From the NCBI GenBank assembly GCA_963831685.1, contig CAWHRJ010000002.1, positions 675,188 to 739,187 on the forward strand: DNA of 64,000 bases. Direction: 5' to 3'. The position numbers and the translations under genes were made by a program. The DNA is from an uncultured Pseudomonadota bacterium. Its GTDB lineage: Bacteria; Myxococcota_A; Polyangia; Fen-1088. Below are positions 12,651 to 34,937 of this stretch, piece after piece. Within the stretch, counting starts at the first letter, position 1; every line of letters starts with the position of its first letter. Under the pieces are notes generated by a model, which saw only the letters and a list, made by a program, of their open reading frames with translations, was not told where the DNA came from and searched no databases.

Positions 12651-13400
12651 ATGACAGCGCCTTCTCGCGCGCGATACACCAAAATCCAGCCTGGACGACG
12701 TTATAGAATCTCGTTCACCATCGATTCGGTGGCCGGGAGCTCCCCCGATGCCGCAAGAGCGATTAGAAGCATCTTCGAGACATATCGGGCCCAAACCCTC
12801 GCAAAACATACGATCGTAGAGAAGTATCTGTTCGCCTACTTCAATATTCTAAAAGGGCGGAACACCAACCTCATCTACGTCGACGGCTTCGCCGGTCGCG
12901 GAACATACGACGCAGAAGGTGGCAAGGCAGTCCCCGGCTCGCCGATCCGGGCACTTCGCTAGAATCGCTTCCCTGCCCGACCTGTCGAAGAAGGTAAGCA
13001 CGACATTCATTGAGAAGGATCCGGTCGCTCTTCGAAAAGCTCCGCGGAGCCGTCGACGACTTCCGAAAAGCAACTCCGTCGATCCGGGAGCCGCACCTTT
13101 TCAACGGCGATTTCGGCAAAGGAGATTTCGAACGTTCTCGACGGACTCGCAGACGAGGGATACACCCTCGCGCCTTCGTTCTTCTTCATCGACCCCTGTG
13201 GAGTTGATGGCGTCGACTTCTCAGTGATTGACCGCGTGCTACGAAACAACGGCGCCTGCGAAGTCTTCATCTTTTTCAACATAGAGGGTGTTTGACGCAT
13301 TCTGGGACTTAAGGACGCGATGGGTGAGACTCTTGCTCGCCTGCTCGGCTCCCGGGCACGTGCAGATGAACTCCTAGTCACCGTCGGCAGCGCCGCGATG
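12651..13400 (+). pseudogene. TcmP-like (three-Cys-motif partner protein family) gene, decayed
   Basis: KHTIVEKYLFAYFNILKGRNTNLIYVDGFAGRGTY...GSPIRAL ends at a stop at 12960. It continues in other frames (IASLPDLSKKVSTTFIEKDPV; LFEKLRGAVDDFRK; EISNVLDGLADEGYTLAPSFFFIDPCGVDGVDFSVIDRVL...CEVFIFFNIEGV*RILG), with an in-frame TGA. Confidence 0.55.
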
Positions 13401-14334
13401 GAAAAAGCCGACAAGGTTGACCCTTTGCTTCTTGATAGCCAGTGCCACAGCGGAACGGTCTCACCAGGGAAATGCACGACTCCCGTAGGACGAGCCCATT
13501 TAGCTCACGTCGCCCGAATGAGACGTTCGCCCGTTCATGATAAAGCAGGTTGGAATCATGAATTCCCAACACGGGATCGTCATTTCCTGGACGACTGAAT
13601 AGCGTCCCCAATAGTCTGAAGCGAGCAACCTCTGCTGGTGACACAGCCTGGGTCGCATCCTCCGTCTTGGGCAGAAATGCATTGACGAATCGCATGCTCT
13701 CGTCGGAGATGGGATCCTGCTTTTGGGGACCCGGTTGTAACACCTGTGGCGTCCCTCCTGGCGTTGCCGGTGCCTGCGTGCGATTAAGCTGATCAGCAGA
13801 GTCCTTCTTCTGAAGAGTGATCAGATACGCCGATATGCAGCGGCGCAACTTAGTGGCAAAGGTCGCCTCGGAAAAATCTTCGAATAGCAGCAGCTTCGTA
13901 TCGACGATCTTCTTTTTGAATGCAATTACCTTCTGTAACTGATCGCCTGGATCTCTCATAAACTGCTCATCGATGTTCTTGAAGAACAAGCTAATTTCTG
14001 GCCGCCCCTCTCGCGCACGGCGAGCGACTGAGAGCTCGAATTCCTCCTCGAACCCGGAGGCATACGCACCTGTCGTGTCGGGCGGAGTACCCCATTTCTT
14101 CCACACCATGCCAATAAATAGTTCGCATCGTTCTAGATCACGATTGATTGTCGCCTGTGGGCGACCAAAGACGGAAACGGTGTCTTCCCATCCAATCAGC
14201 TCCACTTGGTAGCCGAAGGCATTTGCAAATATCGTATTCACCTCGTCGGCAACCGTTTTGGCGATGCGTCGTTCGTCAGACAAATCACCAGGAGATGCGA
14301 GAAAGATGTTTACCAGCTTGCGACTGTCAGCCAC
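13378..14334 (-). CDS. DUF4062-like domain protein (nucleoside 2-deoxyribosyltransferase/TIR-like fold), probably 3'-truncated
   Basis: VNIFLASPGDLSDERRIAKTVADEV...GYQVELIGWED...INRDLERCELFIGMVWKKWGT...GFEEEFELS...GRPEISLFF fits the DUF4062 pattern (FISS..DL..ER......G.....E......I...L..CD.FI.I.G.RYG). Its C-terminal tail reads antisense through the tcmP remnant. Codon usage is AT-richer than the neighbours. Confidence 0.6.
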   Translation of the reverse strand: MADSRKLVNIFLASPGDLSDERRIAKTVADEVNTIFANAFGYQVELIGWEDTVSVFGRPQATINRDLERCELFIGMVWKKWGTPPDTTGAYASGFEEEFELSVARRAREGRPEISLFFKNIDEQFMRDPGDQLQKVIAFKKKIVDTKLLLFEDFSEATFATKLRRCISAYLITLQKKDSADQLNRTQAPATPGGTPQVLQPGPQKQDPISDESMRFVNAFLPKTEDATQAVSPAEVARFRLLGTLFSRPGNDDPVLGIHDSNLLYHERANVSFGRRELNGLVLRESCISLVRPFRCGTGYQEAKGQPCRLFPSRRCRR

Positions 14335-26395: not shown

Positions 26396-27024
26396 CTAGA
26401 GTGCGCCGAACGAATGGATCAGCGCAACCTGCTCGCCGGGGCCGTGGACGCCTTCGATGAGGATCCCTTCGACGTCGGCGGTCTTCGAGGGGCCCGTGCA
26501 GAAGATGACGTTCGGGTCGCCGCCGAGCGCGGCGATGGCGCTGGCCACGTCGGGCAGGATGCGGGCGGGCGCGACGACGGCGACGTGGATCCAGGGGGCC
26601 AGCGCGCCGAGGCGGGTTGCGGTGGTGGCGTCGTCGAGGATCAGGGAGCCGGTCTCGGCGATGGCGCCGCGCGCGCGGGTGATGCCGAAGCGGTAGTCGT
26701 CGATGCGGCCGCGGTCGAGCGCGGTCTCGAGCGTGAGGCCGCCGCCGAGCGCGCGACGTCAGCCAGCCGGCGAGCGCCGGGTCGCAGTAGCCGTGCGTCG
26801 CGCCCTGCTCCTTCAGCCACGCGCCCAGCGCAGCGGGATCGGTGAAGAAGCGGCCGCGCACCGACTCGAGCCGCTCGCGAAAGCGCGAGACGAGGTCGCC
26901 GGGCGCGCGGGCGCCGAGCGTCAACGCCACGTCGGGCGCGTACTCGCGGGAGCGGCTGCTTGTCCGCCACGCCGGCGAGCGCCGTCTTCACGCGATCGAA
27001 GATCAGCCGGCGCGCGTCGCTCAT
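26396..27024 (-). pseudogene. lutC: LutC (LUD domain) L-lactate utilisation protein, two frameshifts
   Basis: MSDARRLIFDRVKTALAG..., then ...LVSRFRERLESVRGRFF...CDPALAGWL, then ALGGGLTLETALDRGRIDDYRFGITRARGAIAETGSLILD...VIFCTGPSKTADVEGILIEGVHGPGE. The three segments are in three frames, with shifts near 26940 and 26760. Confidence 0.8.
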
Positions 27025-28446
27025 GACGGCGTCGCTGGCGTCGCCCGGCTTCGCCTGGCGCCTCTGCTGCGCCGAGCCACTTGCGGAAGGCGCCGCCGCG
27101 CCAGGGCGGCAGCGTGTGGTTCTGGTTCCAGACGCGCAGCGCGCGCGGGCGCAGCGGGCCCGGAATCAATCCCAGCAGCTTCCCGGCCAAAAGCGCGCGG
27201 CGCCAGGAGGCCGGGCGCGAGGCGAGGCGTGCGAACGAGGCCATCGACGGCGACGCGCCGGCCGGGCGCGCGCCGGCGCGCTTGCCGCGGTCGCGCAGGC
27301 GCAGCAGCAGATCGGGGATCGGGATGTTGACCGGGCAGACCTCGTTGCAGGCGCCGCACAGGCTGGAGGCGCTTGCGGCAGGTCGGCCAGCTCCGAAGTC
27401 GATCCCCGGCGAGCAGCGGCGTCAGCACCGCGCCGACCGGCCCGGAGTAGACGCCGCGGTAGGCGTGGCCGCTCGCCTGCCGGTAGACCGGGCAGACGTT
27501 CAGGCAGGCGCCGCAGCGAATGCAGCGCAGGATCTCGCGGTAGTCCCCGCCGAGGACGCGCGTGCGGCCGTTGTCGAGGAAGATGACGTGCATCTCGTCG
27601 GGGCCGTCGAGCTGGCCGGCGGCGCGCGGGCCGGCAGATGAACTCGGTGTAGACCGACAGCTGCTGCCCGGTCGCCGAGCGCGCCAGCAGGTTGAGGAAG
27701 CACGCCGAGGTCGCGATCGCGCGGGACGAGCTTCTCGATCCCGCACGAGCGCGATGTGACAGCCGGTGGCCGCCAGGCAGAAGCGCGAGTTGCCCTCGTT
27801 GGTCACCAGCACCAGGCGCCCGCTCTCGGCGGAGACGAAGTTGGCGCCGGTGATGCCGACGTCGGCCGCGAGGTACTTGCGGCGCAGGTACTCGCGCGCG
27901 CGGCGGGTGATGACCTCGGGCGTGTCGTCGTAGGCGCCGAGGCCGTGCCCCTCGAAGGTGCGCGCCATCTCGCGCCGGTCGCGGTGCATGATCGGCTTGA
28001 CGATGTGGCTCGGCTTGTCGGCGTCGAGCTGCACGACGAACTCGCCGAGATCGGTCTCGATCGACTCGATTCCGTGCCGCTCGAGAAATGCCCCCAGCTC
28101 GATCTCCTCGGTCGCCATGCTCTTGGTCTTGACGACGCGCTTGGCGCCGCGCCCCTCGAGGATCGCCGAGCACGGTCCGGCGGCCTCCTCGGCGTCCGCG
28201 GCGAAGTGCACCTTGGCGCCGTTCGCGCTGCAGGCGCGCCTCGGCGCGTTCCAGGTAGACGTCCAGGTGATCGAGCGCGTGCTGCTTGATGTCGCCGGCC
28301 AGGCGGCGCAGCGCATCGGGATCGGCGAAGTCGCGCGTGAGCGTCTTGATCCGCTTGTCGTACTCGGCCTTGCTGCCGAGTCGGACGGCGTTCCGGCGCC
28401 CCTGACTCTGCCCCGCAGCGAAGGCGTCGATGGGCTCCTCGCTCAC
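27021..28446 (-). pseudogene. lutB: LutB (4Fe-4S iron-sulfur) L-lactate utilisation protein, at least five frameshifts
   Basis: GTG start in a GTGA overlap with the lutA stop. The segments DIKQHALDHLDVYLERAE / NGAKVHFAADAEEA...GANFVSAESGRLVLVTNEGNSRFC / GIEKLVPRDRDLGVL / LNLLARSATGQQLSVYTEFI / MHVIFLDNGRT..CIRCGACLNVCPVY...GPVGAVLTPLL / SSLCGACNEVCPVNIPIPDLLL alternate between frames. The shifts lie near 28235, 27745, 27700, 27640 and 27404-27407. Confidence 0.8.
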
Positions 28447-29227
28447 GCGCGGACCTCGGCGCGCGACTGGAGCGCGTCGCGCAGCACCTGCGCCAGATGC
28501 AACGTGCGCAGCGGCCGCCCGGCCTTCTCGGCCAGCCCGGCGACGTGCATGAGACAGCTCGAGTCGCCGGAGACCAGCACGTCGGCCCGGGCCTCCAGGA
28601 CGTGCTCGATCTTCAAGGTCCCGATCGCGCGCGAAATCTTCGGGAACGCGACCGAGAACGTCCCGCCGAACCCGCAACACTGCTCCCCCTCACCGAATCT
28701 CGACGACCTCGACGCCCTCGATCGATCGCAGCAGTGCCAGCGCCCCCTCGGCGTAGGCCGTCCCGCGCGAGTGGCACGAGCGGTGAAACGCGACCCGCAT
28801 TGGCAGCTTCCCCGGCCAGCGCGAGACGCCGAGGTGGCGCACCACGAAGTCCCCCAGCTCCCACGTCCGCTGCCCGAGCGCGCCGACCTCCGCGCTGTCT
28901 GCCTCGCCCTCGAACAGCAGCAGCGCGCCGTGCGACACCATCCGCGCGCACGATCCCGACGGGACCACCACCGGCGCCGCGTCGCCGAACACCCGCAGCC
29001 CGTGACGCGCGACCGTCCGCGCCGCCGGCCAGTCGCCGCTGTTGAACGCCGGCTGCCCGCAACAGGTCTGGTCCTCGGGGAACGTCGACCTCGCACCCGA
29101 GGTGCTCCAGCACCTCCACCGTCGCCCGCGCCACGTCGTCGAAGAACGCGTCGCAAAGACAGGTCGCCATCAACTGGACGCGCGGCGGGCTCACGTCGGC
29201 GACGTTAACCAGCGCCGAGAACAACAT
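28443..29227 (-). pseudogene. lutA: LutA (CCG-domain Fe-S oxidoreductase) L-lactate utilisation protein, two frameshifts
   Basis: VQLMATCLCDAFFDDVARATVEVLEHLGCEVD / EDQTCCGQPAFNSGDW...VVPSGSCARMV...HRSCHSRG / EQCCGFGGTFSVAFP...SGDSSCLMH. The shifts are at the GGGG run 29077-29080 and the CCCCC run 28686-28690. Confidence 0.8.
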
Positions 29228-29248: not shown

Positions 29249-29275
29249 GCATACATGGGTATGCTCGAAGTATGC
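29249..29275. promoter_or_regulatory. Candidate vapBC operator
   Basis: Inverted repeat GCATAC-atgg-GTATGC (29249-29264) plus a third GTATGC half-site (29270-29275) overlapping the vapB ATG. Confidence 0.35.
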
Positions 29276-29556
29276 GTAGGATTACGATCAGCCTGGATGA
29301 CGAGCTTGCGCGCCTGGCTGAGGCGGAAGTCCGGGCGGGACGCGCCCCTTCTGTGAGCGCTTGGATCGCGGATGCGATCCGCACGAAGGCGCGCGCCCGA
29401 GCCGAGCTCATCGCCGACTTCGAAGAGCTCGAACGTCGCGACCCGACGCCTCCTGAAATAATCGAGTCGACAGCGCGTGCGCTCGGGTTGCCTCGCAGTG
29501 TCGTTCTGAAAGCTCTCGGTCGCCGTGGTCGCGGTGGCGGCCGGCGGGCGGCGTGA
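29272..29556 (+). CDS. vapB: Ribbon-helix-helix antitoxin (VapB-like)
   Basis: The MRRITISLDDELARLAE N-terminus is RHH-like. GTGA overlap with the PIN gene. Confidence 0.7.
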   Translation: MRRITISLDDELARLAEAEVRAGRAPSVSAWIADAIRTKARARAELIADFEELERRDPTPPEIIESTARALGLPRSVVLKALGRRGRGGGRRAA

Positions 29557-29933
29557 CGAGCACCGTTCTGGACGCGGGCGCCTTGATCGCGCTCGAGCGA
29601 GGCGCCGCCAGCGTCCGTCCGTACGTTTTACTGGCTCGTCTCGCCGAGACGACGCTCGTCACCAGCGCGGCGGTGGTTGCCCAGGTCTGGCGAGGCGGCA
29701 GCCGGCAGGCACGGCTTACCCGCTTCCTCAACAGCGACCTCGTCACCGAGATCCCGCTCGACCCCGATGCGGCGCGCCGGATTGGCGTCCTGGCGGCGGC
29801 GGTCGGTTCGCGCGACGTCGTCGACGGACACGTCGCGCTCCTGGCGCTCGATCGCAACGCAGTCGTGCTCTCCAGCGATCCCGACGACATCGCCCGCTGG
29901 GGCGTGTCGGACGAGCGGATCGTCCGCTGTTGA
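29553..29933 (+). CDS. vapC: PIN-domain toxin (VapC-like)
   Basis: 126 aa. VLDAGALIALERG ... DGHVALLA ... VLSSDPDD carries the acidic PIN residues. Confidence 0.8.
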   Translation: MTSTVLDAGALIALERGAASVRPYVLLARLAETTLVTSAAVVAQVWRGGSRQARLTRFLNSDLVTEIPLDPDAARRIGVLAAAVGSRDVVDGHVALLALDRNAVVLSSDPDDIARWGVSDERIVRC

Positions 29934-29971: not shown

Positions 29972-30181
29972 TTAGCCGCCGCCCCTGCTGGCCAGCCGCC
30001 TGAGTGCCTCGTTCACGGATTCCGATGTCGGAAACTTCTCGGCAACGTCCGGATCGAGGAGGACCACATTCGTCCCCTGCCGGTAGCGCTCAACATACTT
30101 ACCACGTACCCCACCCGTGAGGTCGTACTCAGGCAGCAGCTCGTCGTCTTCGTCGTCAGGCTTCATACTGCTCTCGCTCAT
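29972..30181 (-). CDS. BrnA-like antitoxin partner of the decayed BrnT
   Basis: 69 aa. LPEYDLTGGVRGKYVERYRQGTNVVLLDPDVAEKFPTSESVNEALRRL is a pattern I recognise from small antitoxins encoded after BrnT/DUF497 toxins. Confidence 0.6.
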   Translation of the reverse strand: MSESSMKPDDEDDELLPEYDLTGGVRGKYVERYRQGTNVVLLDPDVAEKFPTSESVNEALRRLASRGGG

Positions 30182-30425
30182 GACGAGTCATGACTCTAGC
30201 ATCGATGATCCGCGTCGTCCCGTCGCGGTCCGTATGAACACCGCGAGCAGGCGACCTCGACGGCTCAACCCAAACTGGACCATCCGTTCCTCAGCCCACG
30301 AGTGCCTCGGATCGGTGAATCGTGACAGAAAGCGGATCGTCGAAGACGGTGGACGCTTCGGCGAAGGACACGCCGTGCTTGGCCAGGTTTCGCGCTGCCT
30401 TCTCGGCGTCCCATTCGAATCGCAT
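30156..30425 (-). pseudogene. brnT: BrnT (DUF497) toxin with two frameshifts
   Basis: MRFEWDAEKAARNLAKHGVSFAEASTVFDDPLSVTI, then a shift to EERMVQFGLSRRGRLLAV, then a shift to HTDRDGTTRIIDARVMTRHEREQYEA. The start lies 3 nt after the yfbM-like stop. Confidence 0.7.
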
Positions 30426-30428
30426 CAC

Positions 30429-30923
30429 CTAACTCAGGTACAGGATCATCGAGTCACCCGCTCCTGCCGCTTCAGCGAAGAAGGTGCGCAGGGCTTCGTA
30501 ATAACCTACGACGTACCCTCTCCCTTCGGCTGACCATCCCTCTGGGTAGATTTCGGCGTTGGCGAACTTGTCCGCGTCGAATCCAGACCACAGCTGCTCA
30601 CCCGAGATGCCGCTCAGGGCTCTTGAGACCGCCTGAACATCGTGGGCCGAGAGGCCCCGCGCCGGACCGTACCCAACGTCTTCATCACCAAGCTCTATGC
30701 CACCCATGACCGCGTTCTGGAGCGGTGGTTTCCCTTCCCAAGGGTCGCCCGTGAGCAGGAACTGGATTGCATGCCACGCCTTATCGATATCCAGGTGCTT
30801 CCCATGGGGACGCTCGCCGTTCCCGTCATCAGGGTGCAGGAGCTCCAGGATATCGGACGGATCTTCACGAAGCCGCGCAAGCTGCACCTCGGGGATTCGC
30901 AGGTAGTTGCCGATCATCGACAT
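30429..30923 (-). CDS. YfbM/DUF1877 family protein
   Basis: 164 aa. MSMIGNYLRIPEVQLARL...LDIDKAWHAIQFLLTG... is the typical DUF1877 opening. The ATG lies 8 nt after the attC-like site E. Confidence 0.7.
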   Translation of the reverse strand: MSMIGNYLRIPEVQLARLREDPSDILELLHPDDGNGERPHGKHLDIDKAWHAIQFLLTGDPWEGKPPLQNAVMGGIELGDEDVGYGPARGLSAHDVQAVSRALSGISGEQLWSGFDADKFANAEIYPEGWSAEGRGYVVGYYEALRTFFAEAAGAGDSMILYLS

Positions 30924-30931
30924 GGTCGTCC

Positions 30932-30993
30932 GCCCAACGTTATCGCGTTCAGCGGCCTGGCGCAGCCCCGTCCGCTGGAACGCGTGGTTCGAC
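30932..30993 (-). repeat. attC-like structured repeat E (62 nt)
   Basis: Minus strand: GTCGAAC CAC GCGTTCCAGCGG ACGGGGCTGCGCCAGG CCGCTGAACGC GATAAC GTTGGGC. Confidence 0.6.
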
Positions 30994-31986
30994 AGCGCCT
31001 CCGTCGGCGTGAGCGTCCGAGTCGAAGGTCAGGCTCGACCGACGCACCCACGTCCGTTGCGGCTCGCACCCGAGCTCCGCGACCGCCGGATTCTTCAACA
31101 ACCGAAGCCATTCCCTTTCGGGGACCTCCTCCACTTCCACTCCCTCCACGTCGACCCGAGCGGTACCCCAGCGGATTCCCCCAGGCGACGCGTGAATTGA
31201 AGCACCCGCCTTCAGCGTAGCCACGCGTCTCGTGGCATCCGTCGCCAGCGAGTACACGCCACAACATCCAATCCCACCAACCCCCGTCAAGGCGAGGTAG
31301 CCGACCGTCCCCACCCTTCGCATGTCGGTCGAGGGCGTCCATCCCTGCGCGCGACCTGTACCAGCTTCCCACGCGATCCTGACCCATCCACGACGTCGCT
31401 CGAGGATATCGAAGGTCACCGAGTCGGGCTGAAGGCTGAGGTGCGCCGCATCGGGTTTCGGTGCCTCGTACACGGCGAGGCTCCTTCTTCGTGCGCGCGC
31501 CATCCCGATAGCTGCGACGTTGGGTTCGTGTAGTGGCGCGTGACCTTTGGTCGGGCGGCCGACAAGGAGAACGTCGCAGGGAATGCGGACGTCTTTCGCG
31601 ACGAGCTCCGTACCCAGCGGTATCGACGCCCGCATGACGCCGTTGCGACATCGCAAATCAGAGAGCCTGACAGTCTCATTGACGAAGAGCATTCCGCGCT
31701 CGACAGAGACAGGTTTCCGTAGATGGTGGACGACACTCCCCGGTGCCTCGACCGTGATCGCGGAGCCCATTGTCTCGACCGTGGGTGTAGATCGATCAGA
31801 GAACGTCACACGAACTTTGACCGGATCGGCAAACTCCAGGTCGAAGGGTTCGATGTCGCCCAGAAGGAGCGTCAGTTCGTCGCTTTCGCCCTCCGTGACA
31901 CACCCTGACCCAGCTTGCGCCGGCGCCACCGCCCATCCCAGGACGCCGGTGACGACACCCACCAGAATCGCCGGCCTACCCCGCAC
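30949..31986 (-). CDS. Secreted protein, unknown function (cassette 5)
   Basis: 345-aa ORF, GTG start, signal peptide (ILVGVVTGVLGWAVAPAQA). The stop lies inside repeat E. Confidence 0.5.
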   Translation of the reverse strand: MRGRPAILVGVVTGVLGWAVAPAQAGSGCVTEGESDELTLLLGDIEPFDLEFADPVKVRVTFSDRSTPTVETMGSAITVEAPGSVVHHLRKPVSVERGMLFVNETVRLSDLRCRNGVMRASIPLGTELVAKDVRIPCDVLLVGRPTKGHAPLHEPNVAAIGMARARRRSLAVYEAPKPDAAHLSLQPDSVTFDILERRRGWVRIAWEAGTGRAQGWTPSTDMRRVGTVGYLALTGVGGIGCCGVYSLATDATRRVATLKAGASIHASPGGIRWGTARVDVEGVEVEEVPEREWLRLLKNPAVAELGCEPQRTWVRRSSLTFDSDAHADGGAVEPRVPADGAAPGR

Positions 31987-32026
31987 CTACGAATAGACAA
32001 CCGGCACCCTCTCCCGTTCCCTGTCT

Positions 32027-32091
32027 GTCGAACGCGTTGTGTTCAGCGACGGGCCGGTCGCCGGCCCGTCGGCCGCAACGGGTTGTTGGCC
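32027..32091 (-). repeat. attC-like structured repeat D (65 nt, most divergent)
   Basis: Minus strand: GGCCAAC AACCCGTTGCGGCCGACGGGCCGG CGA CCGGCCCGTCGCTGAACACAACGC GTTCGAC. Confidence 0.45.
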
Positions 32092-32226
32092 GGGCCGCCG
32101 GCCGGGCCCGGTTGGCTTCCGCCGAGGATGATCCTCTTGTCACCGAAGGACGCCACGAGCTCGAGCTGTCCACCGAGGGCGGCGATGTACGCAAGGCTGA
32201 CGCCGACCGCCGGCACAGCGGCTCGC

Positions 32227-33225
32227 TCAGGGCGAGACCTTCCACAGCTGCTGGAAGGTCTGCAGGTAGAGGCTCCCGTCCTCCGCTGCGGCCATCGAAC
32301 AGAACACGAAGCTCAGCGGGTCGTACTGTGCTGCCTTTGCGTCGGCAAGCGAAGGCGTCGTCTCGACGAGCGTGGCGTCTGCCTTGTCGGTCGTGCCGTC
32401 GGCAAGATGATAGATCCGGGTCACGCACTCGGGGCAATCGTTGATCACGATGTAGAAACCGCCCTTTGGATCGCGCGCCGTGCAGATGACGGTGGGAGTG
32501 AATCCCGTGAACGTTGCGACGCCCGAGCCATCCACGTTCCCGTGATAGAGCGGTGAACCGTTGCAGCCAGGCTGATACAAGAACACGCCCGTTGGCGCCG
32601 CGCTCAGACCTTGCAGGGCGCAGTTCTCGGCGTTTTCGAGCAGCGCATTCGGATAGACGAGCATCTGGCTCGTCGAAGAGGCGGTGTACAGACCACCGAC
32701 GTTGACGATGGCGACGCGCTCCGCGGAGATGACGGAGAGTCGGGCCACGTCAATGCTCGAGACGTCGATCCAGGGCTGGGCTACGTGGGCCGACGACGAT
32801 CGAACGACGACCGCGACGGCGGTGCCCGTGGAGGGGGACCCGCTCAGCGCGACGTACAGCAGACCGTCCGGTCCCCTGTCGAGGTCGGTGATCCGGTTCG
32901 TCACCGTGGGTGGCGTCCCGGCAGCCGCCTCTTCGAGGGTCAGGTACGTACTGACGTTCACGCCGTCAATCAACCACACGTTCTCGGTGTCCTCGAAGTA
33001 GACACGGTTCTGAGCGTCCACGGCCATGCCCCCCACGCGTTGCCGCCCACTCCACGGAGCGTTGTCGACGACCATCGTCAGCGTGCGTGGTCCCGAGCCC
33101 GCCTCGCCGCCCCGATCGACCCCGGCATCGACCCGAGCCGCGGGCGACCCTGAACAGCCCAGCTCACCGGCGAGTGCCGACACGATGAGAGGCAGGACGA
33201 TGGACCGCATGGCTCCGGAGTGCAT
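32227..33225 (-). CDS. Secreted lipoprotein, propeller-like, unknown function (cassette 4)
   Basis: 332 aa. MRSIVLPLIVSALAGELGC lipobox. The ATG lies 7 nt after repeat C. Confidence 0.6.
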   Translation of the reverse strand: MHSGAMRSIVLPLIVSALAGELGCSGSPAARVDAGVDRGGEAGSGPRTLTMVVDNAPWSGRQRVGGMAVDAQNRVYFEDTENVWLIDGVNVSTYLTLEEAAAGTPPTVTNRITDLDRGPDGLLYVALSGSPSTGTAVAVVVRSSSAHVAQPWIDVSSIDVARLSVISAERVAIVNVGGLYTASSTSQMLVYPNALLENAENCALQGLSAAPTGVFLYQPGCNGSPLYHGNVDGSGVATFTGFTPTVICTARDPKGGFYIVINDCPECVTRIYHLADGTTDKADATLVETTPSLADAKAAQYDPLSFVFCSMAAAEDGSLYLQTFQQLWKVSP

Positions 33226-33232
33226 CGCCGTC

Positions 33233-33294
33233 CGTCAACGTTATCGCGTTCAGCGGTGGGGCGCAGCCCCGTCCGCTGCAACGCGCGGTTGGAC
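33233..33294 (-). repeat. attC-like structured repeat C (62 nt)
   Basis: Minus strand: GTCCAAC CGC GCGTTGCAGCGG ACGGGGCTGCGCCCCA CCGCTGAACGC GATAAC GTTGACG. Confidence 0.6.
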
Positions 33295-33714
33295 AGCGCC
33301 TCGTCGCTGACGAGGCACGATGAAGAAGGCCGTCGCAATTACGATTATCGCAATGCCGATGGACGCAAAACAGGGTAGTCCGCTCGACAAGGCTGCCGCA
33401 GTGTATGCATGTGCAGCGAGTGCGCGCGGAGGATCGTACTCGCCGCAGTAACTGAAGTAGGCATAAGGCGGCAGGGCGAGAAGGGGAACAAGGATCAGTG
33501 GGCGTCGCTCATGGGATGCGGCCGCGTAGCCACACGCCACCGCCACGAGAAAAGCCGGAAGAATCCATAGGACGCTCAAGACGCCCCAAGGCAACCAGAT
33601 CTCGAGAGCTCGCCCCGCGTGAGACTGGGCAGCCCATCGAGCGGCGCCGTTACACGCGACACCCAGCGCAAGAAATATCCCAGTTACCGCTACGAGTGTT
33701 CCGCCCCTCCTCAT
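33250..33714 (-). CDS. Small multi-TM membrane protein (cassette 3)
   Basis: MRRGGTLVAVTGIFLALGVAC... about four hydrophobic helices. The ATG at 33714 lies 6 nt after repeat B. The ORF-track N-terminal extension is rejected. Confidence 0.55.
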   Translation of the reverse strand: MRRGGTLVAVTGIFLALGVACNGAARWAAQSHAGRALEIWLPWGVLSVLWILPAFLVAVACGYAAASHERRPLILVPLLALPPYAYFSYCGEYDPPRALAAHAYTAAALSSGLPCFASIGIAIIVIATAFFIVPRQRRGAVQPRVAADGAAPHR

Positions 33715-33720
33715 CCGTCT

Positions 33721-33782
33721 GTCCAACGTTATGGCGTTGAGCGGCGGGGCGAAGCCCCGTCCGCGCCAACGCCGGGTTGGGC
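33721..33782 (-). repeat. attC-like structured repeat B (62 nt)
   Basis: Minus strand: GCCCAAC CCG GCGTTGGCGCGG ACGGGGCTTCGCCCCG CCGCTCAACGC CATAAC GTTGGAC. Confidence 0.6.
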
Positions 33783-34181
33783 AGCTTGACCGCGACGCCG
33801 CTCCAGTCGAAGGCCCTTTACCGCCAAAGCCACCAGGGCGAGCGAGCTGGCCAGGCCGGCGATTCCAACTGCCGTGGCCGAAGCGAACAGCAAGAAGATC
33901 AGTGCCCAAAGGCCGTTCAGGCTGATACAGGCCCACCAAAGTGCGGTCGGGTCCTTCCAAGATGTCGTCCCGAATCCCCGCCGAAGCAATCCGATGTACA
34001 CGACCCAGCCCAGTCCGAAGACGGCCAGGTATGCGACGACGCCACCTATACCCTCGCGTAAAGCGGCCGGGATCTGCGCCGCCAAAAGGATCGCCCAACC
34101 CGTGCCGATGATCGCTGCGATTGCCGCCAGCGTCCGCGAGAGCCGCTCGTCACGATCCGGGATCCAAAGGTCGGTGTCCAT
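33729..34181 (-). CDS. Small multi-TM membrane protein (cassette 2)
   Basis: MDTDLWIPDRDERLSRTLAAIAAIIGTGWAILLAA... about four helices. The ATG at 34181 lies 9 nt after repeat A. Confidence 0.55.
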   Translation of the reverse strand: MDTDLWIPDRDERLSRTLAAIAAIIGTGWAILLAAQIPAALREGIGGVVAYLAVFGLGWVVYIGLLRRGFGTTSWKDPTALWWACISLNGLWALIFLLFASATAVGIAGLASSLALVALAVKGLRLERRRGQAAQPGVGADGASPRRSTP

Positions 34182-34190
34182 CGCCTGTCT

Positions 34191-34252
34191 GCCCAACGTC
34201 GTGGCGTTAACCCGCGGGCCGCAGGCCCGTCGGGTTCAACGCCGGGTTAGCC
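34191..34252 (-). repeat. attC-like structured repeat A (62 nt)
   Basis: Minus strand: GGCTAAC CCG GCGTTGAACCCG ACGGGCCTGCGGCCCG CGGGTTAACGC CACGAC GTTGGGC. The TAA stop of the SMI1 gene sits inside GGCTAAC. Confidence 0.6.
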
Positions 34253-34702
34253 AGCCTTCCCGTATAGGGCCTGGTCACCAGAGAGCACCATCTGGACAAA
34301 GTCGGTGAATGTTTCGGCGATCGGAACGGGAGTACCGTTCGCCACCAGAACAACTTCCATCCGATCGGGCGTCTCGGCAGAGAATCGCGCTCCATAGGCC
34401 CAACACCAATACGAATGGTCGGCGAAGACCACGGTGTTCGCAAGATGTCCCTGTGCGTACTGCGGCGCTTCTTCTTCAACCCGTCGCCACTTGTCGAGGG
34501 ACCAGAGCGTGATGAGGCCATGATCGACGTCGGTCATATCCGCCGTCCCGTTCATGCGTTCGTAGAACGCCCGCGCATCCGCCGGCAAGGTGATGCCTAG
34601 TCTCCGTTCAGTCGACGCGACCTCGTCAGGGCTGCATGGCCGGTTGCGCTGGGCGTCCACGAACGAGGCGACCGCATCTGCGAGTTCGTGTGGCGTTCGC
34701 AT
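34247..34702 (-). CDS. SMI1/KNR4 (SUKH-1) family protein (cassette 1)
   Basis: MRTPHELADAVASFV...VASTERRLGITLPADARAFYERMNG...LWSLDKW...VVFADHSYWCWAYG is the typical SUKH-1 pattern. The ATG at 34702 lies 6 nt after GTTAGCC. Confidence 0.8.
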   Translation of the reverse strand: MRTPHELADAVASFVDAQRNRPCSPDEVASTERRLGITLPADARAFYERMNGTADMTDVDHGLITLWSLDKWRRVEEEAPQYAQGHLANTVVFADHSYWCWAYGARFSAETPDRMEVVLVANGTPVPIAETFTDFVQMVLSGDQALYGKAG

Positions 34703-34708
34703 TGGTCT

Positions 34709-34727
34709 GGCTAACTTTGTATTAACC
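34709..34727 (-). promoter_or_regulatory. attI-like core site preceding cassette 1
   Basis: Minus strand GGTTAATACAAAGTTAGCC. Compare, from memory, the attI1 core CTAAAACAAAGTTAGGC. Confidence 0.35.
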
Positions 34728-34937
34728 AGCAATCTCCCGCTGCCCTAGATTTTTCGCAAGCAGTGACATTGGTCCGTGGGGATGCTGGCAGGCGAGCTCG
34801 GAGCGCAACGATGTCAGACGGTTTCGCAACGCCGGCCCCAAGACGGGCGGGCAACGTAGCCGCGGCCCGGTCTGTATAATCTGCGAAGAGAACCTGTGAC
34901 GCGGGCTACGGGTCGCGGTCGGAGGTCGGACCGCGCG

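What the first reader, a model, noticed from the sequence alone, without database searches (positions are those of the whole stretch)
30429..34702. Cassette cargo looks like a collection of orphan immunity and TA genes
**What the sequence shows**
The cassettes carry, in order:
- an SMI1/KNR4 (SUKH-1) protein;
- two unrelated small four-helix membrane proteins;
- two secreted or lipoproteins of unknown function;
- a YfbM/DUF1877 protein fused in one cassette with a brnT(pseudo)-brnA pair.

No cognate toxin domains or secretion-system genes are adjacent.

**Interpretation**
SUKH-family proteins are established immunity proteins of polymorphic toxin systems, and small membrane proteins are common immunity factors. 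An integron-like recombination platform stockpiling orphan immunity genes would parallel the recombinase-associated acquired interbacterial defence islands described in Bacteroidales. As far as I know this has not been described for a GC-rich Myxococcota-type genome.
Basis: inference. Interest (0 to 1): 0.7.

Follow-up and report, generated by a model that had tools for sequence, protein, structure and literature searches.

The report
Integron cassette array with mixed cargo
This is an ordinary integron gene-cassette array that has lost its integrase, in a soil myxobacterium (Polyangia-type) genome; one of its six cargo genes looks like an orphan toxin-immunity gene and two units are toxin-antitoxin modules, but the rest are of unknown function, so it is not a dedicated immunity-gene store.

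Summary
The gene list is correct. Pfam confirms SMI1/KNR4 (44.6 bits) and DUF1877 (151.7 bits). brnT gives 95 bits once two frameshifts are repaired.

The platform is a real integron array: five attC sites, all on the minus strand, and an attI-like junction. There is no integrase anywhere in the 64-kb window. The same attC type sits next to true integron integrases in Polyangia MAGs. A syntenic MAG has different cassettes at the same junction.

The "immunity stockpile" reading is only partly supported:
- **Immunity family:** one of six cassettes (SUKH-1) belongs to a known immunity family. In the ten contexts examined, its relatives lie among small unrelated genes, five of them confirmed attC arrays, never beside a toxin.
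- **DUF1877:** its high-confidence model matches only YfbM, a protein of unknown function.
- **Other cassettes:** the two membrane proteins and two lipoprotein-like proteins stay unassigned.
- **Census:** of 227 cassette ORFs with this attC type, about 2% fall in immunity families and roughly 9% in toxin-antitoxin families. At most about a third match any Pfam family.

Verdict: a new member of a known kind (a CALIN-type array) with typical mixed cargo. Orphan-immunity cassettes are a real but minor component.

The parts
34715..34937 (-). attI-like region between the GH31 stop codon and the first cassette; the recombination junction is ...GGTTAATACAAAG|TT at 34715/34714
   Evidence: Homologous to the stretch between the intI stop and the first cassette in L049, and to the syntenic L030. 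The junction is identical in all three, and the sequence after G|TT differs in each.
34197..34714 (-). Cassette 1 (518 nt): SMI1/KNR4 (SUKH-1) protein, ORF 34702-34247, cytoplasmic, 151 aa
   Evidence: Pfam PF09346, 44.6 bits. Nucleotide homology to L001 starts at 34715, one base upstream of the boundary. A 95% identical cassette occurs in L059.
34188..34262 (-). attC1
   Evidence: Covariance model R1, 92.0 bits. Bottom-strand hairpin -21.9 kcal/mol, z = -3.0.
33727..34196 (-). Cassette 2 (470 nt): 150-aa protein with three to four predicted transmembrane helices, ORF 34181-33729, which reads into attC2
   Evidence: Hydropathy. No family above threshold. One weak relative, 34% identical, in array L092.
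33718..33792 (-). attC2
   Evidence: R1, 94.2 bits. Hairpin -28.1 kcal/mol, z = -5.3.
33239..33726 (-). Cassette 3 (488 nt): 154-aa protein with four hydrophobic segments, ORF 33714-33250, which reads into attC3
   Evidence: Hydropathy. No family. No relative in about 185 related loci.
33231..33304 (-). attC3
   Evidence: R1, 86.3 bits.
32033..33238 (-). Cassette 4 (1206 nt): 332-aa lipoprotein-like, mostly beta protein, ORF 33225-32227
   Evidence: Signal peptide plus Cys24. Weak hit to the designed beta-propeller Pizza6, E = 5e-5. Sub-threshold TEN_NHL hit. The AlphaFold single-sequence model is unusable, pLDDT 36.
32024..32101 (-). attC4 (4-nt longer loop)
   Evidence: R1, 57.8 bits.
30938..32032 (-). 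Cassette 5 (1095 nt): 345-aa secreted or lipoprotein, ORF 31986-30949 (GTG start), which reads into attC5
   Evidence: Rare family: 58 representatives among 1.84 billion. Conserved Cys29, Cys137, Cys242 and Cys307. Only weak bacterial SH3 signals. The closest relative is also an attC-bounded cassette.
30929..31003 (-). attC5 (last attC of the array)
   Evidence: R1, 88.0 bits.
30429..30923 (-). DUF1877/YfbM-family gene, 164 aa; it has no attC of its own downstream
   Evidence: PF08974, 151.7 bits. AlphaFold pLDDT 92.7; the only PDB match is YfbM 1RYL. Homology with the 85% identical copy in L008 covers the ORF plus a few upstream bases only, 30931-30431.
30162..30428 (-). brnT with two +/-1 frameshifts (pseudogene, or assembly indels)
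   Evidence: Three-frame translations. The repaired protein scores 95.2 bits to BrnT_toxin.
29972..30181 (-). 69-aa putative antitoxin partner of BrnT (not a Pfam BrnA)
   Evidence: No profile hit. Homologues 55-63% identical lie directly downstream of BrnT in L018 and L165.
29272..29933 (+). vapB (RHH) and vapC (PIN) toxin-antitoxin pair, opposite strand, at the attC-less end of the array
   Evidence: RHH_1, 22.4 bits; PIN, 34.1 bits. GC3 of 0.67 and 0.84 against 0.90-0.94 in host genes.

Best explanation
The region is a chromosomal integron cassette array that has kept its attI site but lost its integrase; IntegronFinder would call it a CALIN. It sits between a GH31 glycosidase gene and lutABC in a Polyangia-type (Myxococcota) genome.

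Five promoterless cassettes, each ending in a folded attC site, were inserted one by one at the G|TT junction of attI. The enzyme must have been an IntI integrase encoded elsewhere, acting in trans (inferred). A sixth unit (DUF1877 + brnT + antitoxin) has lost its attC sites.

The cargo is the usual mix for sedentary chromosomal integrons:
- Mostly rare genes of unknown function, here small membrane and secreted proteins.
- Toxin-antitoxin modules (BrnT/antitoxin, VapBC), which probably stabilise the array against deletion.
- One SUKH-1 cassette, which most likely acts as an orphan immunity protein against a nuclease- or deaminase-type polymorphic toxin made by competitors. This is inferred from the family only.

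Expression probably comes from read-through from GH31 or from a promoter in attI (inferred, not shown).
For: **Shown**
- Five co-oriented attC sites at 58-94 bits; the next best unrelated site in the window scores 18.5 bits. They have attC-like hairpins and compensatory changes in 5 of 26 pairs.
- Cassette boundaries fall at GTT.
- The same attC type flanks proteins that pass the integron-integrase model TIGR02249, at 451 and 302 bits. IntI homologues lie near arrays in 10 or more loci.
- The 220 nt upstream of cassette 1 are homologous to the intI-proximal attI region of L049.
- L030 shares the GH29-GH31-attI synteny but carries different cassettes from the G|TT onward.
- There is no IntI homologue in the window.
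- Cassette GC3 is 0.61-0.81 against 0.90-0.94 for host genes.
- The SMI1 and DUF1877 genes occur at 85-95% identity in other metagenomic contexts. Homology stops within a base of the SMI1 cassette start and within a few bases of the DUF1877 ORF ends.
- Census of 227 cassette ORFs: BrnT x9, HTH_37 x6, PIN x2, Zeta x2, ParE, HicA, CopG and BrnA, against SMI1 x2, WapI-like x1 and Imm-NTF2-2 x1. Most ORFs have no Pfam hit.

**From the literature**
- SUKH is the most widespread immunity superfamily of polymorphic toxin systems (PMC3482391, read).
Against: - No integrase lies within 29 kb on either side, so present-day activity is unproven.
- The last unit lacks attC sites and brnT is frameshifted, which could mean the array is decaying.
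- No toxin partner is known for the SUKH cassette, and no experiment supports immunity.
- Four of six cargo proteins remain functionally blank, so the 'typical mixed cargo' label rests partly on ignorance.
- The promoter scan found nothing, but it uses an E. coli-type consensus.
Confidence: 0.75

Rival explanations
1. One reading: the array is a dedicated stockpile of orphan immunity genes, an integron-borne counterpart of Bacteroidales rAID-1 or of heterogeneous polyimmunity loci. The small membrane proteins and lipoproteins would be immunity factors against membrane- or cell-wall-targeting toxins.
For: - SUKH-1 is confirmed.
- Other immunity-type families occur as cassettes in arrays with this attC type or beside this subfamily: a second SMI1 and WapI-like, Imm-NTF2-2, Imm33-like next to the closest C5 relative, SUFU in the gene run that holds an SMI1 relative, and SdpI.
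- Envelope-located proteins are the expected location for immunity to envelope toxins (general knowledge).
- rAID-1 authors themselves noted integron-like repeats (bioRxiv 10.1101/471110).
Against: - Only 1 of 6 cassettes is in a known immunity family.
- The unbiased census gives 4 of 227 (about 2%) immunity families.
- No relative of the SUKH cassette is next to a toxin in ten contexts.
- DUF1877 matches only YfbM.
- C2-C5 have no detectable similarity to any immunity family.
- C4 and C5, at 332 and 345 aa, are large for immunity proteins.
Confidence: 0.15
2. The cassettes are anti-phage defence genes, as shown recently for cassettes of Vibrio and mobile integrons. The toxin-antitoxin pairs would act by abortive infection.
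For: - Integron cassettes of unknown function can encode phage defence (bioRxiv 10.1101/2024.07.02.601719, listed).
- Toxin-antitoxin modules are present.
- One OLD-like TOPRIM/AAA cassette and HNH and Mrr cassettes occur in the wider pool.
Against: - None of the nine proteins in the array hits any of the 5027 PADLOC models.
- SUKH, DUF1877 and the secreted proteins have no known defence role.
Confidence: 0.07
3. The array is an inert relic: a decapitated integron that is decaying and whose genes are no longer selected.
For: - No intI in 64 kb.
- brnT is frameshifted.
- The terminal attC is missing.
- The neighbouring lutA and lutB (and possibly lutC) genes also appear frameshifted.
Against: - All six cargo ORFs and vapBC are intact.
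- The five attC sites keep high scores and stable hairpins.
- The syntenic L030 has entirely different cassettes at the same attI, so turnover continued after the GH31-attI arrangement arose.
- A 95% identical SMI1 cassette in another MAG suggests recent exchange.
- The frameshifts may be assembly errors.
Confidence: 0.15

Closest known systems
CALIN / sedentary chromosomal integron cassette arrays (IntegronFinder classification, PMC4889954)
   Same: - Tandem, co-oriented attC sites with R''/L''/L'/R' architecture, and single-ORF promoterless cassettes of 0.47-1.2 kb.
- Lower GC than the host.
- Cargo mostly unknown, plus toxin-antitoxin modules.
- No integrase nearby.
   Different: - It keeps an attI-like region that is homologous to the intI-proximal region of a related complete integron.
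- It sits at a chromosomal site shared with another species that carries different cassettes.
- In relatives the integrase points the same way as the cassettes, not divergently as in class 1 integrons.
Recombinase-associated acquired interbacterial defence (rAID-1) clusters of Bacteroidales (bioRxiv 10.1101/471110)
   Same: - An array of small genes separated by repeated intergenic sequences.
- Skewed GC content.
- At least one orphan immunity-type gene with no toxin nearby.
   Different: - rAID-1 has a conserved adjacent XerD-family recombinase, and its genes are largely homologues of T6SS and other immunity genes.
- Here there is no recombinase in 64 kb, the repeats are true attC sites served by IntI, and only about 2% of the wider cassette pool (1 of 6 here) falls in immunity families.
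Heterogeneous polyimmunity loci of polymorphic toxin systems (Zhang et al. 2012, PMC3482391)
   Same: - A SUKH-family gene lies among unrelated small genes without a cognate toxin.
- SUKH and SuFu genes lie about 4 kb apart in the gene run of L075, where two attC or attC-like sites were found.
   Different: - Polyimmunity loci are defined by being dominated by immunity families, and they are not bounded by attC sites.
- This array is dominated by unassigned genes.
Toxin-antitoxin cassettes in chromosomal integrons (e.g. Vibrio superintegron; own knowledge)
   Same: - BrnT/antitoxin and VapBC lie inside or at the edge of the array.
- BrnT is the commonest recognisable cassette family in this attC type, with about 30 copies in about 185 loci.
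   Different: - brnT here is frameshifted and fused behind DUF1877 with no attC between them.
- The antitoxin is not a canonical Pfam BrnA.

Membership tests
Integron (complete) | Integron integrase gene (intI) next to the array | tested here: not met
   tblastn with the IntI of L073 (TIGR02249, 451 bits) finds nothing in the 64-kb window. The flanking genes are GH31 and lutABC.
Integron (complete) | attI primary recombination site | tested here: met
   By homology only. Region 34715-34937 aligns with the intI-proximal region of L049, and the ...GGTTAATACAAAG|TT junction is identical. Recombination activity was not tested.
Integron cassette array / CALIN | Two or more attC sites: co-oriented, imperfect palindromes with R''...R' (GTTRRRY) boxes, spaced by single ORFs, and no intI within 4 kb | tested here: met
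   Five sites at 58-94 bits, all on the minus strand, with 470-1206 nt between crossover points. Hairpins and covariation support them. The same attC type is linked to IntI elsewhere.
Integron cassette array / CALIN | attC sites are recombined by IntI (bottom-strand recombination) | not testable with these tools
   This needs an excision or insertion assay.
SUKH-1 (SMI1/KNR4) immunity proteins of polymorphic toxin systems | Sequence membership in the SMI1_KNR4 family | tested here: met
   PF09346, 44.6 bits against a cut-off of 25.4, covering profile positions 1-124 of 125.
SUKH-1 (SMI1/KNR4) immunity proteins of polymorphic toxin systems | Genomic linkage to a toxin domain, in this locus or for close relatives | tested here: not met
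   No toxin next to it here. None in ten contexts of relatives at 26-96% identity: L001, L002-4, the P0003 contig, L026, L059, L075, L077 and L078.
SUKH-1 (SMI1/KNR4) immunity proteins of polymorphic toxin systems | Neutralises a cognate toxin | not testable with these tools
   Needs a co-expression or competition assay.
rAID-1 (recombinase-associated acquired interbacterial defence) | Conserved adjacent XerD-family tyrosine recombinase | tested here: not met
   No tyrosine recombinase of the IntI/Xer type was detected in the window with the IntI query. The adjacent genes are GH31 and lutA.
rAID-1 (recombinase-associated acquired interbacterial defence) | Cargo largely homologous to known or predicted immunity genes | tested here: not met
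   1 of 6 here. 4 of 227 in arrays with the same attC type.
DUF1877 / YfbM family | Sequence and fold match to YfbM | tested here: met
   PF08974, 151.7 bits. Model pLDDT 92.7, Foldseek hit to 1RYL with E = 2.8e-8 and TM 0.71-0.74. The family has no known function.
BrnT/BrnA type II toxin-antitoxin | Intact BrnT toxin domain | tested here: not met
   The domain is recognisable (95.2 bits) only after two frameshifts are repaired. An assembly error is not excluded.
BrnT/BrnA type II toxin-antitoxin | BrnA antitoxin domain (PF14384) downstream | tested here: not met
   The 69-aa protein has no Pfam hit at E <= 0.1. It is nevertheless the conserved downstream partner of BrnT in L018 and L165, so it works like an antitoxin partner but is not a Pfam BrnA.
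VapBC type II toxin-antitoxin | RHH antitoxin followed by an overlapping PIN toxin | tested here: met
   RHH_1, 22.4 bits; PIN, 34.1 bits. The ORFs overlap by 4 nt, 29272-29556 and 29553-29933.

The most novel reading that the evidence does not exclude
In soil Polyangia, integron cassettes would be a route by which orphan polymorphic-toxin immunity genes (SUKH-1, SuFu, Imm33-like, Imm-NTF2, WapI-like, SdpI-like) move between lineages. Arrays that have lost their integrase but kept attI, fixed at a conserved chromosomal site, would keep exchanging such cassettes through an integrase acting in trans. Some of the unassigned small membrane and lipoprotein cassettes would then be new immunity families against envelope-targeting toxins used in myxobacterial kin discrimination and predation.
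Probability: 0.2. Interest if true: 0.6.

Novelty: new member of a known kind. Interest (0 to 1): 0.33.

Why it matters
Mostly it sets the record straight. The locus is a standard integron cassette array, and its cargo profile is what chromosomal integrons usually carry: unknowns plus toxin-antitoxin modules.

Two points have modest value for specialists.

- **Immunity genes as cassettes.** Polymorphic-toxin immunity families do occur as mobile single-gene cassettes in Polyangia arrays, with 85-95% identical copies across metagenomes. I did not find this stated in the open-access literature searched. It suggests integrons could spread interbacterial immunity as well as antibiotic and phage resistance.
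- **Turnover without a local integrase.** An attI-bearing array with no integrase sits at the same chromosomal site in two species, with entirely different cassettes. That is a natural case for studying cassette turnover by an integrase acting in trans.

Tried and rejected
- **Source genome.** Exact look-up of the window's DUF1877 protein and of its 100% identical cluster representative failed, so the source genome was not identified.
- **DUF1877 as a hidden SUKH relative.** Profile-profile comparison gives probability 0.2%. Rejected.
- **DUF1877 tied to toxin-antitoxin modules.** In L008 it is also followed by an antitoxin-like gene. However, homology ends at the stop codon and the Polyangiaceae copy is solitary. 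Treated as coincidence of cassette neighbourhood.
- **C2 and C3 as one family.** The only similarity is a 49-aa stretch at E = 2e-4, which I attribute to the attC-encoded tail. Rejected.
- **Small multi-TM proteins as a hallmark of these arrays.** Only 9 of 106 ORFs qualify. Not remarkable.
- **Structure of C4.** The single-sequence AlphaFold model has pLDDT 36 and is unusable.
- **C5.** PDB sequence and profile searches, plus a Pfam scan of 30 family members, gave only weak SH3-like signals.
- **Defence systems.** PADLOC gave no hit.
- **Plasmids.** Only a 57-nt brnT match was found.
- **Promoters.** The scan found none.
- **Literature.** Searches for integron plus SUKH, KNR4, immunity protein or DUF1877 found nothing directly relevant.

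Full report
**What is there**

All cargo genes between 29.97 and 34.70 kb lie on the minus strand. The region has 61-65% GC against 68-74% in the flanks. Cargo GC3 is 0.61-0.81 against 0.90-0.94 in neighbouring host genes.

A 67-nt repeat follows five of the genes. Aligned, the copies show the anatomy of integron attC sites:
- An R'' ...AAC box pairing with an R' GTTRRRY box.
- An unpaired spacer.
- An L''/L' stem with bulged bases.
- A short variable loop.

Five of the 26 predicted pairs carry compensatory changes. Four of the five bottom strands fold clearly better than shuffled controls (z = -2.3 to -5.3); attC5 does not (z = -0.55).

A covariance model built from the five copies finds exactly these five sites in the 64-kb window, at 58-94 bits. 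The next best unrelated site scores 18.5 bits.

Crossover points (G|TT) define five cassettes of 518, 470, 488, 1206 and 1095 nt. After the fifth attC comes a unit without attC sites: DUF1877, a brnT remnant and a small antitoxin-like gene. An intact vapBC pair follows on the other strand.

| Unit | Result |
|---|---|
| C1 | SMI1_KNR4, 44.6 bits (cut-off 25.4) |
| C6 | DUF1877, 151.7 bits |
| brnT | Two +/-1 frameshifts; repaired protein 95.2 bits to BrnT_toxin |
| 69-aa 'BrnA' | No profile hit; homologues directly follow BrnT in L018 and L165 |
| C2, C3 | C3 has four hydrophobic segments. C2 has three hydropathy peaks plus a fourth read by eye. No family, not related to each other |
| C4 | Signal peptide and an early cysteine |
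| C5 | Signal peptide; the early cysteine (Cys29) is nearly invariant in its family |

The flanks are lutABC, GH31 and GH29, so no toxin or secretion gene is adjacent.

One caveat applies. A GC3 frame plot shows frame switches in lutB and lutA, and possibly lutC. Metagenomic relatives come from ENA assemblies whose contig names suggest long-read data. The brnT 'pseudogene' may therefore be an assembly artefact.

**The platform is a true integron array without its integrase**

An attC pattern scan of one genome per species returned 63 loci. About 40 of them carry model-confirmed attC sites, mostly in Polyangia or Myxococcales MAGs, and many hold arrays of 5-10 sites.

Next to such arrays lie proteins that pass the curated integron-integrase model TIGR02249:
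- L073, 451 bits (cut-off 265).
- L049, a partial gene, 302 bits.

IntI homologues occur in at least ten loci. In L073 and L049 the integrase points the same way as the cassettes. The window itself contains no IntI homologue.

The 220 nt between the GH31 stop codon and the first cassette align with the stretch between the intI stop and the first cassette in L049. All end in the same ...GGTTAATACAAAG|TT junction. Locus L030, from another MAG, shares GH29-GH31 synteny at 80-85% nucleotide identity and the same junction. From the G|TT onward it carries different cassettes.

So this is an attI-bearing, integrase-less array at a conserved chromosomal site, and its cassettes have turned over. I infer that an integrase acting in trans did this.

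**Are the cargo genes orphan immunity genes?**

*SUKH-1 (C1).* SUKH is the most widespread immunity superfamily of polymorphic toxin systems (PMC3482391), so immunity is the most likely function.

This subfamily is rare: 6 relatives in a word-indexed search of 5.8 billion proteins, and 43 with a profile. In every context examined it lies among small unrelated genes, and no toxin was seen beside it:

| Locus | Context |
|---|---|
| L001 | attC sites on both sides |
| L002-L004 | attC array with an IS110-family transposase upstream |
| JGI contig with P0003 | Run of small genes, including one with an SdpI domain |
| L026 | 26-31% identical copy, a cassette |
| L059 | 95% identical copy, a cassette in a nine-attC array |
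| L078 | Five attC sites |
| L077 | Beside a protein of the integron-cassette family Hfx_Cass5 |
| L075 | Preceded by an attC 3' end, in a long run of small genes that also holds a SUFU protein |

Nucleotide homology with L001 begins within a base of the cassette boundary. C1 is therefore a mobile, orphan, immunity-type cassette. The link to a toxin rests on the family alone.

*DUF1877 (C6).*
- A deep alignment gives a confident model (pLDDT 92.7). Its only structural neighbour is E. coli YfbM, of unknown function.
- It is unrelated to SUKH.
- An 85% identical copy shares only the ORF and a few upstream bases.
- A 71% identical Polyangiaceae copy is a solitary chromosomal gene with no attC.
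- Nothing ties it to immunity or to toxin-antitoxin function.

*C2-C5.*
- There are no family, defence-system or structural assignments.
- C5 belongs to a rare family with 58 representatives among 1.84 billion.
- The nearest relative of C5 is again a cassette ending in an attC, in an array that also holds an Imm33-like cassette.

**Census of the cassette pool**

I extracted 225 attC-bounded cassettes from loci returned by the genome and metagenome scans: 89 from the genome scan, 136 from the first 100 metagenome loci. I scanned 227 of their ORFs against Pfam.

- **Toxin-antitoxin families are the most frequent recognisable class, at roughly 9%:** BrnT x9, HTH_37 x6, PIN x2, Zeta x2, and ParE, HicA, CopG and BrnA once each.
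- **Polymorphic-toxin immunity families are about 2%:** SMI1_KNR4 x2, WapI-like x1, Imm-NTF2-2 x1.
- **The rest:** insertion sequences and scattered enzymes. Fewer than 90 family hits were listed across the 227 ORFs, several on the same proteins, so at most about a third match any Pfam family.

This is the cargo profile usually reported for sedentary chromosomal integrons. It does not describe an immunity island.

**Verdict**

The comparison with rAID-1 is one of appearance only. The defining recombinase and the immunity-dominated cargo are both absent.

The array is a new member of a known kind. Two modestly interesting side results remain: immunity-type genes travel as integron cassettes in soil Polyangia, and an attI-bearing array without an integrase shows cassette turnover at a conserved locus.

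Noticed in passing
window 34715-34937 (-); L030:4917-5112; L049:7160-7347: An attI-like region with an identical ...GGTTAATACAAAG|TT junction follows the GH31 stop codon in the window and in a syntenic MAG. In L049 it follows an intI gene. The window and L030 carry completely different cassettes after the junction, which implies cassette turnover at an attI that has no integrase in cis.
   Followed up: partly
window 26400-29200 (-): lutB and lutA each show one GC3-frame switch inside an otherwise continuous coding region, and lutC possibly another. GH31, GH29 and other long genes nearby show none. These are either decaying genes or local assembly indels. This bears on whether brnT is truly a pseudogene.
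   Followed up: partly
window 33729-33790, 33250-33300, 30949-31000 (-): The ORFs of cassettes 2, 3 and 5 read through most of their attC site and stop in the ATAAC just before R'. Unrelated proteins therefore share attC-encoded C-terminal tails (..AQPGVGADGASPRR, ..VQPRVAADGAAPHR, ..VEPRVPADGAAPGR). Similar attC-derived tails are visible in the cassette DNA of L030 and L049, read by eye.
   Followed up: no
about 185 related loci (e.g. L036, L106, L186 with three copies each): BrnT is by far the commonest recognisable cassette gene in arrays with this attC type, with about 30 tblastn copies and often several per array. A 69-aa partner with no Pfam match, homologous to the window's 'BrnA', follows BrnT in L018 and L165.
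   Followed up: partly
L073:2386-3423 and L049:7348-7959: The integron integrases of these Polyangia-type integrons are transcribed in the same direction as the cassettes, not divergently as in class 1 integrons.
   Followed up: no
L002:1-924, L003:2-1402: An IS110/IS1111-family transposase lies directly upstream of, and divergent from, the SMI1 cassette in three metagenomic contigs. IS66 and IS3 elements also sit inside other arrays.
   Followed up: no
L008:894-1574 and window 29972-30428: In both the window and the 85% identical metagenomic copy, DUF1877 is followed by a toxin-antitoxin-like unit whose toxin part looks missing or damaged: brnT here, and an HI1420-type antitoxin preceded by about 300 nt of non-coding sequence in L008. 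The DNA homology ends at the DUF1877 stop codon.
   Followed up: partly
window 13001-14000: GC content drops to 0.54 in a genome of about 0.69. This may be another foreign insert.
   Followed up: no
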